From the NCBI GenBank assembly GCA_037379345.1, contig CM074511.1, forward strand, positions 52,892,862-52,956,861: a stretch of DNA of 64,000 nt, read 5' to 3'. Source of the stretch: Perna viridis. Lineage: Eukaryota. Shown here piece after piece: positions 48,001 to 57,000 of the stretch. The stretch's first letter is position 1, and the number at the start of each line of letters is the position of its first letter. The position numbers are program-made.

Positions 48001-51000
48001 AACACCTGGTTGACCATGTCTATAACTTACCTTTCCACACTCTGACACTGTTTCTAACACCTGGTTGACCATGTCCATAACTTACCTTTCCACACTCTGA
48101 CACTGTTTCTAACACCTGGTTGACCATGTGTATAACTTACCTTTCCATACTCTGACACTGTTTCTAACACCTGGTTGATATTGTTCAGGGCATCTTTCCA
48201 AGTATAATTAGATATATTTATATCATTGCCACTATACAGGAACCTAAACAAAGGATCACATGGACTGTAATTTGGGTCCACATCACACATGAATGAGAAG
48301 TTTAGTCCCGCTGCTTGAGTGATATAGTTGTTCAGTGCAGCTGAGGCAAAACCAGGTATGAGAGATGAGATATCAAATCCCCCAACAGTTTGGCCTGTCA
48401 GGATATCTGATATATTAAATCCTGGGAGTGATCCATTACAGGCTGTTTGTCTAAATGTATGCCAGACATCATCACAAACCTCAGAGCATGTAAAGTCCTG
48501 AAATGAAGTAAAAGCTGTGAAAGAACTTTTAATCTGGACTATCAGTTTTCATTGGTACACATTTTTTCTCTAAAAATCTAATTTGTATGAAATCATGGCT
48601 ATTCACCATGAAAGGGCTAACCAACCAAAGAATGTTACAAAAAAATAGGGACTAGTACTCCATGAGAACATTTTGCAGATTTTTCAAATAATTAAGCCAA
48701 TGTTTCTGAAACTAATTAAAAAACAAAATATCATAGTCACCACAGGCTTACAGTTCATACTTTAACAATATGACATTAATACATGCACTACATATAGGTG
48801 ACCTTCGTTTATAAAAACTAAATAATGTTAATGATAGGTTACCCTCAATAGTTGAATATTTGGATCTGTATCAAGGAAATTGAACAAAGAATCAGATTCT
48901 ACCCTCCATGTATTAGCAAGATCTACAATGCTGAACAGATCATCAAATGTCTTGTTTGCCTAAAAAATAAATAATTTATAATGATAGAGCACAGTTTTAA
49001 TAACAATTTTTGATAGTTATTGTAAATATATAAATTTTCACATTGAACTAATTTTTGCTATTTTAATGGTGGACTGAAAAGCATGAAAAATAGTACTTTA
49101 CACTAATAATTTTTTACACCATTAAGATTGATACCCGCAAATATGGTCACTTGACAGAATCCACAAAAATTAGCAGCTGCAAAAATTAATAAGTTTATAG
49201 AAATTACGAGGAATAGGGTTGGTTTACCCTTGATTGAATTACCCTTAACTCATTAACTTAATGGACAATTGACAAAGAGATATGAATTTTCTATCAGACA
49301 TACACTCAAGTACCTATGAAATGATAAAAAGGTTGAATCTCCTTGTTATTTGTCCAGTGATCTACCTATGACAGTTCATCAAGTTGTAATCATTCAATAA
49401 AGGGAAGACCAACTTTATTCCCTAAAGTCGACTACATTTTAAATCACTGTGATATCCAGTCATATTATATTTATACACATGTAATTCCTTTTTATGTTTA
49501 CACCACATTTAAGGAAGTACACCTAAGGTAAGGGACATAACTCTTGAAATCAGTGATACGTTTGTATCATATTCAATTTCACCAACGCCTTTCAATCAGT
49601 CCAAGTTACTTTGATGCTTACATGAGATTGATGTAAAATGCTGAATACAAATGTTTACATGATTCGTAAGAGTTGTGTCCCTTACTCTAGGTCTACCTCC
49701 TCAAAACACTGTCATTTCTTGTTCATGAACGAGAATTAAGATTAAAATTTACAATAAAAGACAATATGGTATTGAGAAATTGACCATACAAGCCTGCTCA
49801 TTACGATTCCTGTCATTTTCAGTTAAAATTATAGGGATGAAGAGACAGCGAAGTCCTACATATGTAGATCCTCTGTCAAAACATGAATATTTCAAAATTT
49901 TTCTGTCCGAATTGACGTATGAAGTAAGTGTGTGATTGTTTGAACTTTTAACACAGATACCCATCAGTGGGAAAATATCACATATTCCCGCAGGACACGA
50001 CATCAGCAATATAACAATATAATGGTGCATTTATTAATCAAGTTAAATGTAACTTGAATACAAATAGCTCCGTCCCTAATAAGAAAAGCCTAAAATTAAA
50101 TTAAAGTTCAAGACAGAACAGGTAAATTTAAACAAAGGAGCCAAAATTTTTAATGAAATATAATAAAACCACAGCAATGAAATAACATACCATTCTAATA
50201 ACTTCATTTACTGTTGTACTGTTAGGAGCATATGGAATCTTTCCTTCAACAAGAGGCTCCAGTTGTCTCCATATTACTTGTCCAAAGTCAGTTGACTCTA
50301 AATTATCCACTAAATCTGCACAAACTGTTCCTAAAAAAAAAAACCAAAAAAAAACCACAATATTGTCATGACTTCTGAAATATAGAACAGGGTATATGTT
50401 ATTTACTCTACTCTAAACAATGTATGTTACTTACTTTACTCTGAACAGAGTATTTGTTATTTATTGTACTCTAAACAGAGTATTTGTTACTTACTCTACT
50501 CTAAACAGAGTATTTGTTACTTACTCTACTATGAACAGAGTATTTGTTACTTACTCTACTATGAACAGAGTATATGTTACTTACTCTACTATGAACAGAG
50601 TATATGTTACTTACTTTTGCACTGAACTCCTGGATTTCCTATAATTTCCTTTCTGTTACCACAATTATGGCAATGTGGGTGTTTTCCTCGTTTAGATTTA
50701 TACTGACCAGCTGGACATGGCTTACAAGTGTTACCAGCAGAATCATAGAAATATCCTCTATCACAATACACTGCAGTAAAAAAGATTAAAGTACTAATTA
50801 ATACTCTTTATCACAGTACACTGAGTACACTGAAGTAGAAACAGATTATAGTTCATACAATAATGACATTTTTCTTTTATAAATTTGGCAATAATCCACC
50901 CAGTTGTTTCAGAGGAGAATATTGCTAAAAAAAAAGTTAACAATGACAAATGAGACCACAGATGCCAAGTGATGACAAAAGCTTGAATGGCCTTTGGCCT

Positions 51001-54000: not shown

Positions 54001-57000
54001 ATCAGTTGGCTTATAATATCCCTGGTCACATGGTTCACAATTGTCATCCCCCTCTTTACCAGCACTACAGGTAACTACAAGATTTTAAAGCAATATTATA
54101 GCGTTCTATAGTTATCAAAATATGAAGTCTATATTTTTTTTTCCTCAAATATATTACTGTCAGAGTAATCACAGTCATTTTTTAACCAGTAAGTTCTATT
54201 AGGCCTTTTGCAATAGGAAAAAATGTGATACAAATAACAAAACTTTAAAAAAAATCTGTTGATTATTTTAGAATTTCATAAACATTAACATGTTATTTAT
54301 TCTGCGTATAAGTTCACCTTGGCAATCTTTTTCTTTAGTAGAAGCAGTTGAATTAGTTTTCAGATTATCTTCACAAGGCTTGCAGGATCCTTGATTAGCT
54401 TGTGGTTGGTATGTTCCAACAGGACAAGGGAGACATCCTTGTCCAGAAATATAGTATCCAGGTCTACACTGAGTTGTTCCCCCTCGACCACAAACCAAGG
54501 ATTGGACAGTTTGTGTGACATTCACATTTGTTCCCATGGTAGCCCCTTGAACTTGGCTAAACAGATTCTCAACTGCTGTAATAATTCCTTGGTCACGTTG
54601 ATAAATTGCATACAGCTTCATGAACTGAAACAAAACATCATTTTATTTGCATACAAAAAGAAAAAGAACAAGCCTAAAACACACTTTAACAAGGCAGGGA
54701 TACATGCTAAATGTAAAGTATTGGTTTTCAAACTGAATATGAAACAAAACTGTTACTAGCAAAGAAGACTTCAAATAATATAAAATCTATTCAGAATTTC
54801 AATCATCCCAGTTTATGCTACTTAATGAGAATCCATATTTTTGAAAATTTTATGAAAATGGTCCATAAAATTCTGAATTTCTAACATACTAGTAGGTAAG
54901 TAGAAATTCACATTCATAACTTGTAGTCTTAGTTCGTAGAATCAGTTAAGGTAAACAACTCTCCAATTTTATCCCATATCTTATGAAAATGACCACAGTA
55001 AAAATGACTTAGTATATTAAGTTTAAAAAGGGAATGTTAACCACATTTATCTATAAAAGGGAATGTTCACCACATTTATCTATAAAAGGGAATGTTAACC
55101 ACATTTATCTATAGATAGTTATTCTGGTAATACTAGTTTCTAGGTTAAAGCGAACTAAACTGTAAATTTATATGAACCATGATAAGTTTAGAAAAGCTTT
55201 GGTTGAGTTGTTCTCTACTTTACATATTGAAACTAAAACTGCAAATGATGGACATGTAAAACCAAATCCATTTGGATGGAATTAAAATGAAGAATAAAGT
55301 ATTACAAAATGTATATTGTTGACTTTTTAAGATGCTGGCAACAAAAACTTTTTTAAAACAGCTAGAAATCTAACAGTGTTAAAACCAAGTTTTCATTTTC
55401 AACAATGTTTCATTGTATGCAACTGAAGTATAAATACCACAGGAAAAAATACTCTGAAAATCAAACATTTAAGTATGAATATTACTAAGTTTATCTTCTG
55501 TATCTATATTTTCCCATGATTTCAATGTACAAACACTCCTAAGAACTGGGTTTTTCTATTTCAATGTACAAACACTCCTAAGGACTGGGTTTTTCTTGTA
55601 TCTTTTAATGAACTTACATCCTGATAAAGTTGCAGGAACTGGAGTGGATCTGATAGTATTGATTGTCCAGCATTTCTTTCAATATAATTCAAAATCTGTA
55701 AAACATACATCATATTTATCTTGGAAATAGTTAAAAAAAAAAAATGAAAACTGAAAGTGAACAAAGAGTTAGAAAAATGCATATGCCTTCTACACTTTTC
55801 ATCAAAAGAAACATTGACTTCCTATATCCACAGTTCACTTAAGAAAAAAACCGAAGGTAATATGTCTATATTACTGTCAACTTTCATAATAGTGTAAATG
55901 CATCCAGTATATCCCATTGAACAAATGTATTTTTCCCATAATAGTAAACAAGAAGTAGTTGTAAGTGCTGCATACCAAATATCAAGTGATTATGATCAGT
56001 AGTCCCTGAGAATAATGTTAAGAAAGTTCTGGTTACAGATGAAATGACAGATAAAGCTAAAACAGTATACCCCCTTTCTTCTAAGCAGGAGTATAATAAA
56101 AATAATGAAGAAGGTTGGGAAAGGTGCAGAAAAAAATTGACCGGTTGTGTACTGATATACAGTGAGCGAAAGTGATGGGAAATATTAATCAATTAAACCT
56201 AACTAAACTGTTTTGAGAAATTTCATAATTTACCCAACCTTAAATAAAACTCTAATTTGTACTTAATGATATATATGACTTTCTGAAAAATTTCATGTTG
56301 TGTAAGAAAATTGCATTATGACCAAAAACTTACCTTCAATCAGAAACTTGTGAAGTAACCACAAAAAATTGAATTTCAGAAGTAACAAGCTTTCTGGATA
56401 GATAATTTTTTTGTCCATCCTCTCATAGACCAAATTTTGTAATGTGACTGTGAAATTATCATCATTTTTTAGGATTTAATCATTAAATTTTGATACTAAA
56501 ATTAAACTACAAGGAGTGACAGTTAAATTTTTTCAGTCAATATCAAATAAACCTCAAACCCTTTGGTTCACACTAAAAAATAACCTGCTACACAGGATAT
56601 TTACTGTGCACCACTTAATTGAGGTAATTTTTCATAGACAGAAAAATAGAGCAGTAATTCATTAAATACATGTACTAATAAATTACCACCTCATACATGT
56701 ACTTATTACTCCTCCAATGACTAACATTTCTACATTGATGTTTACCTCATTTCTAGCATTAGGATCATTGAGTGCTGACAACAGTAGAGCATATAACTGG
56801 TCAAACTGAGGTGAAGTGAGGTTACAGATCTGGTTCTGTACAGTCTCTCGTACACTGTCTGATGGAATGATCAGAGTTCGGTTTAAGTACCCTTGTTCAC
56901 ATAGGAGATTCTGTAAGTCCTGAGCTGTCATATTGGTTCCAGGAATCTGACCTCCAGCTGAAGAATTAGTTCTGTTTACTGAGACACTGCATTCTCCAAA

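What the first reader, a model, noticed from the sequence alone, without database searches (positions are those of the whole stretch)
50615..54480. The Cys-rich modules alternate A-B-A-B-A-B plus one divergent unit on symmetrical phase 1-1 exons
Seen: repeats 1, 3 and 5 share C.PG(Y/T)YI.G..C..C..G.YQ....Q..C..C....T....S....C (exons for 3 and 5 are both 156 nt). Repeats 2, 4 and 6 share C..G.EG...C..C....YK.T.....C..C......RT.C (144, 138, 147 nt). Repeat 7 is divergent. All six stand-alone exons are multiples of 3 and phase 1-1. Knowledge: phase 1-1 is the classic signature of shuffled extracellular modules. Inference: an A-B exon pair was triplicated long ago, and any exon can be skipped in frame, so stalk length may vary by isoform or species.
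Basis: partly seen in the sequence, partly recalled or inferred. Interest (0 to 1): 0.65.

Follow-up and report, generated by a model that had tools for sequence, protein, structure and literature searches.

The report
Cysteine-rich arm inside mussel ABCA1
Seven small disulfide-rich modules, six of them on their own in-frame exons, sit in the outer domain of a mussel ABCA1-like lipid-transporter gene, a domain combination that turned up only in Mytilus-type mussels.

Summary
On the minus strand there are seven 6-cysteine modules. Module 1 shares an exon with upstream coding sequence. Modules 2-7 are stand-alone exons of 144, 156, 138, 156, 147 and 156 nt, all AG/GT and all phase 1-1. All seven exceed the Pfam cut-off for Ephrin_rec_like, PF07699. 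Modules 1, 3, 5 and 2, 4, 6 are two distinct types.

It is an ABCA1-like ABC transporter spanning about 60.7-16.8 kb. The array lies in its first extracellular domain, in the loop between the cysteines that align with human ABCA1 C309 and C355. Of 64 ABCA proteins retrieved, only 5 carry PF07699, and all 5 are from Mytilus.

Module 7 is not a decayed copy. Types A, B and "S" (module 7) form a contiguous A-B-S trio in unrelated large Ephrin_rec_like array proteins. The array is therefore best read as (A-B)x3 + S.

In-gene triplication of the A-B pair is plausible but not resolved statistically. Orthologues keep 7 modules. One Mytilus paralogue model has 5 and lacks exactly one A-B pair. No transcript data could be checked.

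The parts
54318..54624 (-). Exon of 307 nt, phase 0->1. The first ~50 codons are ABCA ECD1 sequence ending in the conserved 'VCG' cysteine. The last 52 codons (54474..54319) are module 1, type A.
   Evidence: splice sites, phase; PF07699 44.1 bits, residues 56-101 of the exon; 67% identity to P0001 residues 298-399; position of the VCG cysteine.
53931..54074 (-). Module 2, type B. Stand-alone exon of 144 nt, phase 1-1.
   Evidence: 27.4 bits; B 70.1 bits against A 18.8.
52981..53136 (-). Module 3, type A. Exon of 156 nt, phase 1-1.
   Evidence: 44.0 bits; A 76.7 against B 16.0.
52359..52496 (-). Module 4, type B. Exon of 138 nt, phase 1-1.
   Evidence: 27.9 bits; B 64.7 against A 19.0.
51648..51803 (-). 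Module 5, type A. Exon of 156 nt, phase 1-1.
   Evidence: 41.8 bits; A 76.4 against B 12.4.
51193..51339 (-). Module 6, type B. Exon of 147 nt, phase 1-1.
   Evidence: 26.6 bits; B 67.9 against A 14.4.
50615..50770 (-). Module 7, type 'S'. Exon of 156 nt, phase 1-1. Its first half resembles the module that follows A-B in other array proteins; its tail is divergent.
   Evidence: 27.3 bits, profile positions 1-34 only; S 88.5 bits; groups with the third module of the A-B-S trios.
50191..50330 (-). Next exon, 140 nt, phase 1->0. ABCA ECD1 resumes here with the second conserved cysteine and the 'IW..L.P...GKIPY.P' stretch.
   Evidence: the Mytilus orthologue's equivalent residues 703-799 align to human ABCA1 354-450.
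50385..50615 (-). 30-nt minisatellite, 7.7-7.8 copies, starting at the last base of module 7's exon. Six of its units carry GTAAGT. An in-frame TAA in the first unit means downstream donors would not extend the protein.
   Evidence: the frame was read.
16756..60712 (-). Host gene: an ABCA1-like full transporter, about 50 exons, colinear with Mytilus ABCA1-like proteins.
   Evidence: tblastn colinearity with P0001 and P0002; ABC2_membrane_3, ABC_tran, R1_ABCA1 on minus-strand ORFs.

Best explanation
The seven exons encode a tandem array of Ephrin_rec_like (PF07699, formerly GCC2_GCC3) modules. The array is spliced into the first extracellular domain (ECD1) of an extra ABCA1-like transporter paralogue of a mytilid-type mussel.

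Position. The array replaces the short variable loop between two invariant, disulfide-forming cysteines that align with human ABCA1 C309 and C355.

Origin (inferred). An A-B-S trio of phase 1-1 module exons was captured by exon shuffling. The donor was a large secreted Ephrin_rec_like array protein of the SVEP1-like or 'EGF-like domain-containing' kind. The A-B pair was then duplicated in tandem twice, giving (A-B)x3-S. The first A later lost its upstream intron.

Function (inferred from family knowledge). The 42 cysteines form a ladder of about 21 disulfides. This would make a stiff arm, N-glycosylated on the A modules, projecting from the distal part of ECD1. By analogy with the ~11 A disulfide spacing in the mastigoneme protein, the arm could be roughly 20 nm long, about twice the height of the ECD itself. 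It would act as a spacer or docking arm for an extracellular partner, such as a lipid acceptor, while the transport core stays unchanged.

Shown: the exon anatomy, the family of the modules, the host gene, the insertion point, the conservation in Mytilus, and the existence of the A-B-S trio elsewhere.

Inferred: the order of events, the rod shape and the binding role.

The confidence given (0.6) is for the whole statement. Identity and position alone I hold at about 0.9, the trio-capture-plus-pair-duplication history at about 0.55, and the docking-arm role at about 0.35.
For: Modules:
- 7 of 7 pass the PF07699 gathering score.
- A profile of the seven modules finds Mst1 mastigoneme (8tx1, 6.5e-20), ELAPOR1 (2e-8), thyroglobulin (1e-6) and Eph receptor cysteine-rich regions (5e-6 to 4e-4) in the PDB.

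Host gene:
- ABC2_membrane_3, ABC_tran and R1_ABCA1 lie downstream on the same strand.
- The exons are colinear with Mytilus ABCA1-like proteins from 60712 to 16756.
- The best solved relative of the Mytilus orthologue is human ABCA1.

One gene, not two:
- Module 1 shares an open exon with ABCA sequence.
- The phases chain 0->1, six times 1-1, then 1->0.
- The same 7 modules in the same order occur in M. coruscus P0001 and M. edulis P0002.
- 26 of 26 modules keep 6 Cys.

Insertion point:
- MAFFT of 9 ABCA1-like proteins.
- Invariant cysteines in 7 insert-free relatives.
- These cysteines align to 5xjy_A chain positions 330 and 376, i.e. native C309 and C355.
- The C75-C309 disulfide is cited from passages of PMC13607428. 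The ABCA4 equivalents C75-C324 and C370-C519 are cited from passages of PMC8501128.

Restricted distribution:
- 5 of 64 ABCA hits carry PF07699, all from Mytilus. Pecten, Lottia, Patella, a second M. trossulus gene and Branchiostoma lack it.
- 0 of 148 module-rich representative proteins has an ABC nucleotide-binding domain.

Extra paralogue:
- The insert-free M. trossulus protein groups with Pecten (100*), apart from the two insert-bearing Mytilus proteins (100*).

A-B-S trio:
- It is seen in P0120, P0198, P0128, P0134, P0165 and the M. gigas protein P0007.
- The B clade is 9 ABCA B modules plus 5 trio B modules and nothing else, 96/96*.
- The A clade is 9 ABCA A plus 5 trio A plus 2 others, 90/85.
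- ABCA S plus the trio's third modules lie on one side of a branch, 70/74.

Pair as the unit:
- The best trees for A and B are congruent.
- The paralogue P0004 lacks exactly modules 3-4.

Rod shape:
- Passages of PMC10602792 describe a disulfide ladder with ~11 A spacing in the Mst1 region, which is where the window's profile matches.
Against: - No transcript, protein or structural data for this gene were available, so inclusion of all seven exons in the mature mRNA rests on gene models of relatives.
- The one structure prediction failed: a single-sequence model of the M. edulis array had mean pLDDT 39.1. The rod shape and the disulfide connectivity are therefore untested.
- The order of duplications is unresolved (AU p 0.20-0.48).
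- In the best trees the ABCA A and B copies are interleaved with trio modules of other proteins. Taken at face value this argues against in-gene triplication, although monophyly is not rejected.
- The strict trio definition was met by only 9 of 77 B-like modules outside ABCA proteins.
- The third module of the trios scores higher with the A model than with the S model in P0120 (36.2 against 14.0 bits).
- The word-limited search returned no oyster ABCA1 and only one scallop protein, so 'mussels only' is a lower bound on the distribution.
- A binding partner is pure inference.
Confidence: 0.6

Rival explanations
1. No in-gene triplication. The whole (A-B)x3-S array, or several A-B pairs separately, was taken over from donor genes that already had alternating modules.
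For: - 4 of 148 representative array proteins contain an ABABAB run by best-HMM labelling, for example P0117.
- In the 48-row tree R4 pairs with P0120_546 (80/85), R6 with four trio B modules (89/78), and R5 sits with trio A modules.
Against: - The proteins with the closest A, B and S modules carry one A-B-S trio each, not three pairs.
- Monophyly of the ABCA A copies and of the ABCA B copies is not rejected (p 0.27 and 0.17).
- 'B' labels in distant arrays are low-scoring, 20-38 bits against 65-82 for ABCA B modules.
- The paralogue with 5 modules differs by exactly one pair.
Confidence: 0.2
2. The module exons are cassette exons. Arm length is tuned by in-frame skipping, so isoforms carry different numbers of modules.
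For: - All six stand-alone exons are symmetrical 1-1 and each carries an even number (6) of cysteines.
- The RefSeq 'isoform X2' of a M. galloprovincialis paralogue has 5 modules and lacks exactly modules 3-4.
Against: - The window, M. coruscus P0001 and M. edulis P0002 all show 7 modules.
- The shorter models P0003 and P0017 look like faulty gene models. In P0003 module 6 breaks off after 5 residues and runs into unrelated residues.
- Whether P0004 lacks the exons in its genome or skips them could not be checked.
- All donors and acceptors look ordinary.
- No RNA data were available.
Confidence: 0.25
3. The modules do not belong to the transporter. They are a separate gene nested in an ABCA intron, or dead relic exons.
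For: None found. This was considered only because domain insertions into ABC transporters are unusual.
Against: - Module 1 is in the same uninterrupted exon as ABCA-specific sequence.
- The phases fit at both ends.
- All seven reading frames are open, with 42 of 42 cysteines kept between the window and Mytilus.
- The unnamed fragment P0121 and the Mytilus fragment P0144 both join ABCA-specific sequence to module 1 and end at the same point after it; P0121 also begins at the same exon start.
- There is no start codon or signal-peptide exon of their own and no plus-strand family hit.
Confidence: 0.03

Closest known systems
Mytilus ABCA1-like proteins (P0002 'phospholipid-transporting ATPase ABCA1-like isoform X2' of M. 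edulis; P0001 'ABCA1' of M. coruscus)
   Same: - Same gene architecture, with the same seven modules in the same order at the same ECD1 position.
- Per-exon identity is 53-97%.
   Different: - No retrieved sequence is identical to the window. Modules are only 59-71% identical, so the window comes from another species or lineage.
- These records are automatic annotations. No paper describing the insertion was found.
Vertebrate ABCA1 / ABCA4 / ABCA7 (solved structures 5xjy, 7tby, 7lkp, 8edw)
   Same: - Two-half ABC full transporter with large ECD1 and ECD2.
- Conserved ECD1 cysteines align with C309 and C355.
- Best PDB match of the Mytilus orthologue, and of insert-free invertebrate relatives.
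   Different: - Human ABCA1 has 45 residues between the two cysteines (counted in the alignment).
- Here the loop holds about 350 residues of Ephrin_rec_like modules.
- Lipid-export function was not tested.
Ephrin_rec_like (PF07699) arrays: Chlamydomonas mastigoneme protein Mst1, Eph receptor cysteine-rich region, thyroglobulin, ELAPOR1
   Same: - Same sequence family.
- Tandem 6-Cys units with CxxC spacing.
- In Mst1 the region where the window's profile matches is reported to form a disulfide ladder (passages of PMC10602792).
   Different: - Those proteins are secreted, filament or receptor proteins. None is an ABC transporter.
- Strict A-B alternation is not general: 0 of the 12 arrays labelled is strictly alternating, and 4 of 148 contain an ABABAB run.
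Large bivalve and invertebrate Ephrin_rec_like array proteins with an A-B-S trio (P0007 'EGF-like domain-containing protein' of Magallana gigas; unnamed P0120, P0128, P0134, P0198, P0165)
   Same: - They contain, once and contiguously, the three module types of this array in the order A, B, S.
- These modules fall in the same tree clades as the ABCA modules.
   Different: - They carry 7-14 or more further modules, and in some cases EGF, Sushi, CUB, HYR or LamG domains.
- They have no ABC domains.
- Their exon structure could not be examined.
TNF-receptor cysteine-rich domains (PF00020)
   Same: Small disulfide-rich modules that build elongated ectodomains. Weak matches were seen.
   Different: All TNFR_c6 scores are below the gathering score (at most 18.4 against 29.4 bits). 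The cysteine spacing differs.

Membership tests
Pfam PF07699 Ephrin_rec_like (GCC2_GCC3) | Score at or above the curated gathering score (23.1 bits) for each module | tested here: met
   7 of 7 exon translations pass: 44.1, 27.4, 44.0, 27.9, 41.8, 26.6 and 27.3 bits.
Pfam PF07699 Ephrin_rec_like (GCC2_GCC3) | Conserved cysteine framework kept in every copy and in orthologues | tested here: met
   26 of 26 modules (window plus three Mytilus proteins) have exactly 6 Cys. The invariant columns of the seven window modules are 6 Cys, 1 Gly and 1 Tyr.
Pfam PF07699 Ephrin_rec_like (GCC2_GCC3) | Extended disulfide-ladder fold | tested here: inconclusive
   The single-sequence AlphaFold2 model of the M. 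edulis array had mean pLDDT 39.1 and was unusable. Only sequence homology to solved members is available.
ABCA subfamily, ABCA1-like | Two TMD-NBD halves with ABC-2 type membrane domains, ABC_tran domains and the ABCA1-type R1 regulatory domain | tested here: met
   - Exon ORFs hit ABC2_membrane_3 (32.7 bits) above the cut-off.
- ABC_tran scores 25.5 and 24.6 bits against a cut-off of 25.
- R1_ABCA1 scores 22.9 bits, below its cut-off of 27, as expected for a single exon piece.
- The second half was mapped by tblastn with P0002 down to 16756.
- No joined protein was scanned.
ABCA subfamily, ABCA1-like | Large ECD1 with the conserved cysteines that form the ECD1 disulfides | tested here: met
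   The 'VCG' cysteine and the second cysteine align with invariant cysteines of 7 relatives, and with human ABCA1 C309 and C355.
ABCA subfamily, ABCA1-like | Orthology to the canonical ABCA1 of bivalves | tested here: not met
   The insert-free M. trossulus protein groups with Pecten ABCA1-like (100*), while the insert-bearing Mytilus proteins form a separate branch (100*). This is a quick tree of 13 rows and 2113 columns. The window gene follows the insert-bearing branch, so it is an ABCA1-like paralogue.
ABCA subfamily, ABCA1-like | ATP-driven lipid export | not testable with these tools
   No functional data are available.
Exon-shuffled extracellular modules (phase 1-1 class) | One module per exon, both flanking introns in phase 1 | tested here: met
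   6 of 6 stand-alone exons meet this. Module 1 is fused to the upstream exon (phase 0->1).
Exon-shuffled extracellular modules (phase 1-1 class) | The same modules present in unrelated genes | tested here: met
   The A-B-S trio occurs in non-ABC array proteins, and these modules share clades with the ABCA modules.
TNFR_c6 (PF00020) | Score at or above the gathering score of 29.4 bits | tested here: not met
   The best score is 18.4 bits.
Alternatively spliced cassette exons | Transcripts with and without the exon | not testable with these tools
   No RNA data are available.

The most novel reading that the evidence does not exclude
Mytilid mussels have turned a spare ABCA1 copy into a receptor-like lipid transporter. 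The (A-B)n-S arm specifically captures an extracellular partner, such as a lipoprotein-like acceptor, a microbial surface or a matrix component, and so couples recognition to lipid export at a distance of up to ~20 nm from the membrane. The number of A-B pairs (3 in one paralogue, 2 in another) sets the reach. This would be the first ABC exporter with a built-in adhesion-type recognition arm.
Probability: 0.15. Interest if true: 0.75.

Novelty: new variant of a known kind. Interest (0 to 1): 0.5.

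Why it matters
ABCA transporters are studied intensively because ABCA1, ABCA4 and ABCA7 underlie human lipid, eye and brain disease. How their large extracellular domains meet lipid acceptors is still debated. A natural variant that carries about 350 residues of adhesion-type modules in one defined ECD1 loop has three uses.

First, it shows that this loop tolerates large insertions.

Second, it offers a handle for testing what the distal ECD contacts.

Third, it is a clean, datable example of exon shuffling into a polytopic membrane transporter. 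A three-module unit was apparently captured, and a two-exon sub-unit was then amplified.

The interest lies in the host gene and in the traceable origin of the modules.

Tried and rejected
- Structure. The AlphaFold2 single-sequence model of the M. edulis 7-module array (374 aa) had mean pLDDT 39.1 and pTM 0.20. It was unusable, so no fold search was run. A deeper alignment would have needed several typed stretches per protein, so it was left out.
Isoform lengths stayed unchecked.
- Representative search with the module-1 exon. It gave 704 hits at E<=0.001. The 150 listed are almost all generic arrays matching only the module half. Only P0121 (query 1-102) and P0144 (query 34-102) cover the ABCA-specific half. 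The search gave no taxonomic information on distribution, but it did lead to the A-B-S trio.
- AU tests on duplication order and on monophyly of the ABCA copies. All were non-significant.
- DNA-level repeats between module exons or introns. Only short two-copy matches and the 30-nt minisatellite turned up.
- Extra hidden or decayed modules in the window. None were found; the next best E-value is 0.15.
- Plus-strand ORFs in 49.7-54.9 kb. 0 of 10 have a Pfam hit at E<=0.01.
- Rfam on 49.5-55.5 kb. 0 matches.
- Literature. 'ABCA1' with 'Ephrin_rec_like' returned 0 papers. For 'ABCA', 'GCC2_GCC3', 'ephrin receptor-like' and 'bivalve', none of the 10 listed papers was relevant. For ABC transporter, ABCA, Mytilus and genome-wide, 11 papers were listed and none was about this by title or abstract.
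- TNFR membership was rejected on score.
- The collections genome contigs (bacteria and archaea only), metagenome contigs and viral contigs were not used. No eukaryotic genome DNA of relatives was available, so exon structures of orthologues and donors stayed unchecked. Supplementary files were not consulted.

Full report
SCOPE. The window is not human. Its closest proteins are Mytilus proteins and its G+C content is about 32%. Every window exon was translated and searched by itself. Where a full-length query was needed I used public Mytilus proteins returned by the tools.

1. THE OBSERVATION. The coding strand is the minus strand.

Reading it and checking by script gives seven cysteine-rich units. 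Module 1 is the last 52 codons of a 307-nt exon (54624..54318, phase 0->1). Modules 2-7 are stand-alone exons: 54074..53931 (144 nt), 53136..52981 (156), 52496..52359 (138), 51803..51648 (156), 51339..51193 (147) and 50770..50615 (156). All have AG/GT sites and all are phase 1-1. The next exon, 50330..50191, is phase 1->0. The introns between them are 243-794 nt.

Each module has 6 cysteines. The spacings are [10,2,13,2,16] in modules 1, 3, 5, [8-9,2,13,2,12-13] in modules 2, 4, 6, and [12,2,14,2,13] in module 7.

Literally they match 0 of 7 modules. With corrected gaps they match exactly the odd and the even modules, and nothing else in the six-frame translation.

Profile HMMs of the three types find no further module among 2839 six-frame pieces of the window. 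The next best E-value is 0.15.

2. A AND B ARE REAL GROUPS.
- Identity is 39-47% within A, 38-49% within B, 22-31% between A and B, and 23-32% for module 7 against all others.
- On a tree of the 7 window modules, B is one side of a branch (90/89) and A is too, weakly (46/59).
- With 19 modules from three Mytilus proteins added (26 rows), the values are B 88/87, A 58/64 and module 7 95/86*. The three labels need the minimum of 2 changes, reached in 0 of 200 shuffles.
- HMMs trained on Mytilus modules only classify the window modules without exception.

3. WHAT THE MODULES ARE. All seven pass the Pfam gathering score for Ephrin_rec_like, PF07699. The A modules match the full profile at 42-44 bits. 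The B modules match a shortened version at about 27 bits. Module 7 matches only the first 34 profile positions.

A profile of the seven modules finds these solved structures:
- the Chlamydomonas mastigoneme protein Mst1 (6.5e-20);
- ELAPOR1 (2e-8);
- thyroglobulin (1e-6);
- Eph receptor cysteine-rich regions (5e-6 to 4e-4);
- TNF receptors, only weakly.

TNFR_c6 itself stays below its cut-off.

4. THE HOST GENE.

Minus-strand ORFs downstream hit ABC2_membrane_3, ABC_tran and the ABCA1 R1 domain. The module-1 exon retrieved 'ABCA1' of Mytilus coruscus (P0001), at 68% identity. tblastn of P0001, and of the 2791-aa M. edulis 'ABCA1-like isoform X2' (P0002), maps colinearly to about 50 exons from 60712 down to 16756.

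P0001 and P0002 carry the same seven modules in the same order. Each window module is closest to its positional counterpart (59-71% identity) rather than to same-type neighbours (41-48%).

Module 1 lies in the same open exon as ABCA-specific sequence. The unnamed fragment P0121 begins and ends at the same exon limits, and the Mytilus fragment P0144 ends at the same point after module 1. The array is therefore part of the transporter.

5. WHERE IT SITS. In an alignment of 9 ABCA1-like proteins, the array replaces a variable linker between a conserved 'VCG' cysteine and a second conserved cysteine. That second cysteine precedes the 'IW..LKP..GKIPY.P' stretch.

Both cysteines are invariant in seven insert-free relatives, with 45 residues between them in Pecten. 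A profile of those relatives aligns them to positions 330 and 376 of chain 5xjy_A, whose numbering runs 21 ahead. They are therefore human ABCA1 C309 and C355. The second junction is confirmed directly, where P0002 residues 703-799 align to ABCA1 354-450.

C75-C309 is a known ECD1 disulfide of ABCA1 (PMC13607428, passages of the Introduction). In ABCA4 the equivalents are C75-C324 and C370-C519, and residues 101-300 form the distal 'lid' (PMC8501128, passages of the structure section). The array thus hangs on a loop pinned at both ends by disulfide-bonded cysteines, just after the lid segment.

6. DISTRIBUTION.
- Of 64 ABCA proteins found with the post-insert ECD1 of P0002, 5 carry PF07699, and all 5 are from Mytilus.
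- Pecten, Lottia, Patella, Branchiostoma, arthropod and vertebrate proteins do not carry it. Neither does a second Mytilus gene, P0059 of M. trossulus.
- Of 56 proteins found with the array region itself, the same 5 are the only ABC proteins.
- None of 148 module-rich representative proteins has an ABC nucleotide-binding domain.
- On a 13-protein tree (2113 columns, quick search) the insert-free M. trossulus protein groups with Pecten (100*). The two insert-bearing Mytilus proteins form their own branch (100*) inside bivalves (99*). The insert-bearing gene is therefore an additional ABCA1-like paralogue.

These searches are word-limited and returned no oyster ABCA1. 'Mussels only' is what was seen, not what has been proven.

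7. MODULE COUNT IN RELATIVES.
- The window has 7, M. coruscus P0001 has 7 and M. edulis P0002 has 7.
- A second M. galloprovincialis gene (P0004, 'isoform X2') has 5, namely modules 1, 2, 5, 6 and 7. It lacks exactly the pair 3-4.
- P0003 breaks off inside module 6 and runs into unrelated residues. P0017 is fragmentary. I take both for faulty models (inference).

Whether P0004 reflects a gene difference or exon skipping could not be checked.

8. ORIGIN. Among the representative hits, several large Ephrin_rec_like array proteins contain, once and contiguously, three modules in a fixed order:
- an A-like module;
- a short B-like module with the same 'G.EG' start and 'RT.C' end;
- a third module that begins like module 7.

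Examples are P0120 at 494/546/594, P0198 at 1743/1795/1846, P0128 at 416/468/519, P0134 at 3259/3311/3360 and P0165 at 295/350/400. A strict definition was met by 9 of 77 B-like modules outside ABCA proteins. One of these is in a named oyster protein, P0007 of Magallana gigas.

These proteins consist of 7-14 or more Ephrin_rec_like units. Some also carry EGF, Sushi, CUB, HYR or LamG domains.

In a careful 48-row tree:
- the B clade holds the 9 ABCA B modules plus the 5 trio B modules and nothing else (96/96*);
- the A clade holds the 9 ABCA A modules, the 5 trio A modules and 2 others (90/85);
- the ABCA module 7 sequences (100/99*) lie with the five third-position trio modules (70/74).

A 95-row quick tree gives the same picture. 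So the A/B split and module 7's type are older than the insertion. The last three window modules (5-6-7) reproduce the trio.

9. WAS THE PAIR TRIPLICATED IN PLACE?

For:
- the strict alternation;
- congruent best trees, with (1,5) at 95/97* and 3 outside, and (2+6) at 71/100 with 4 outside;
- a paralogue that differs by exactly one pair;
- donors that carry a single trio.

Against or open:
- other orders are not rejected (p 0.20-0.48);
- in the larger trees the ABCA copies interleave with trio modules, although monophyly is not rejected (p 0.27 for A, 0.17 for B);
- with about 50 columns this cannot be settled;
- the duplications left no DNA-level trace.

10. LIKELY WORKING (inference). The 42 cysteines are conserved in 26 of 26 modules across species. 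Together with membership in a family whose tandem arrays form disulfide ladders, this points to a stiff extended arm. In the Mst1 region where the window's profile matches, the reported disulfide spacing is ~11 A (PMC10602792, passages).

With about 21 disulfides the arm could approach 20 nm. The reported ECD height of ABCA1 is about 10 nm (PMC8501128, passage). N-glycosylation sequons occur only in the A modules: 1, 2 and 1 in modules 1, 3 and 5, and none in B modules or module 7.

The most economical role is a spacer or docking arm for an extracellular partner of the transporter, with the transport core unchanged. My one structure prediction failed (pLDDT 39.1), so shape and disulfide connectivity remain untested.

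11. VERDICT.
Module 7 is its own ancient type. The 'stalk' is an insertion in ECD1 of an ABCA1-like paralogue.
- The repeat anatomy is textbook exon shuffling. The host and the traceable A-B-S origin make it a new variant of a known kind.
- No paper describing it was found. The Mytilus records themselves are automatic annotations that already list PF07699.

Noticed in passing
window 44350-44736, minus strand: Two tandem copies of one ECD1/TM-border exon: 44736..44560 (177 nt) and 44514..44350 (165 nt), separated by only 45 nt. Both have AG/GT sites. M. coruscus P0001 matches the first copy better (79% against 68%). M. edulis isoform X2 (P0002) matches the second better (75% against 69%). They look like mutually exclusive alternative exons.
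   Followed up: partly
window 46636-48178, 38135-38478 and 50385-50615, minus strand: Three intronic minisatellites begin at or overlap the 3' end of an exon of this gene and repeat the donor site. The 55-nt repeat has 28 copies, each with GTAAGT, plus the last ~38 nt of exon 48503..48141. The 57-nt repeat has 6 copies and holds the end of exon 38567..38424 plus 'CAGGTAA'. The 30-nt repeat has 7.7 copies and lies after module 7, with 6 GTAAGT. I did not look for an explanation.
   Followed up: partly
P0002 against P0004 (two Mytilus paralogues): The modules are far more alike between the two paralogues (74-96% identity) than the ECD1 stretch just before them (51%). This is similar to the NBDs (88-94%). 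It fits either strong constraint or gene conversion of the array between paralogues.
   Followed up: no
window 2066-4928: Long 33-nt satellite, with 66- and 99-nt higher-order periods. It is about 2.9 kb long and lies downstream of the gene.
   Followed up: no
P0121 (unnamed 130-aa protein): An ORF-through-exon fragment from an unnamed source is 64% identical to the window's module-1 exon and has the same exon limits. It matches neither the window nor the Mytilus proteins retrieved, so a further lineage carries the ABCA-module junction.
   Followed up: no
window 42478-42822, 45183-45568, 31462-31713, 20702-21176, 20155-20334: Five more intronic minisatellites lie in the same gene, with periods of 43, 71, 22, 18 and 29 nt. 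The gene is unusually rich in them.
   Followed up: no
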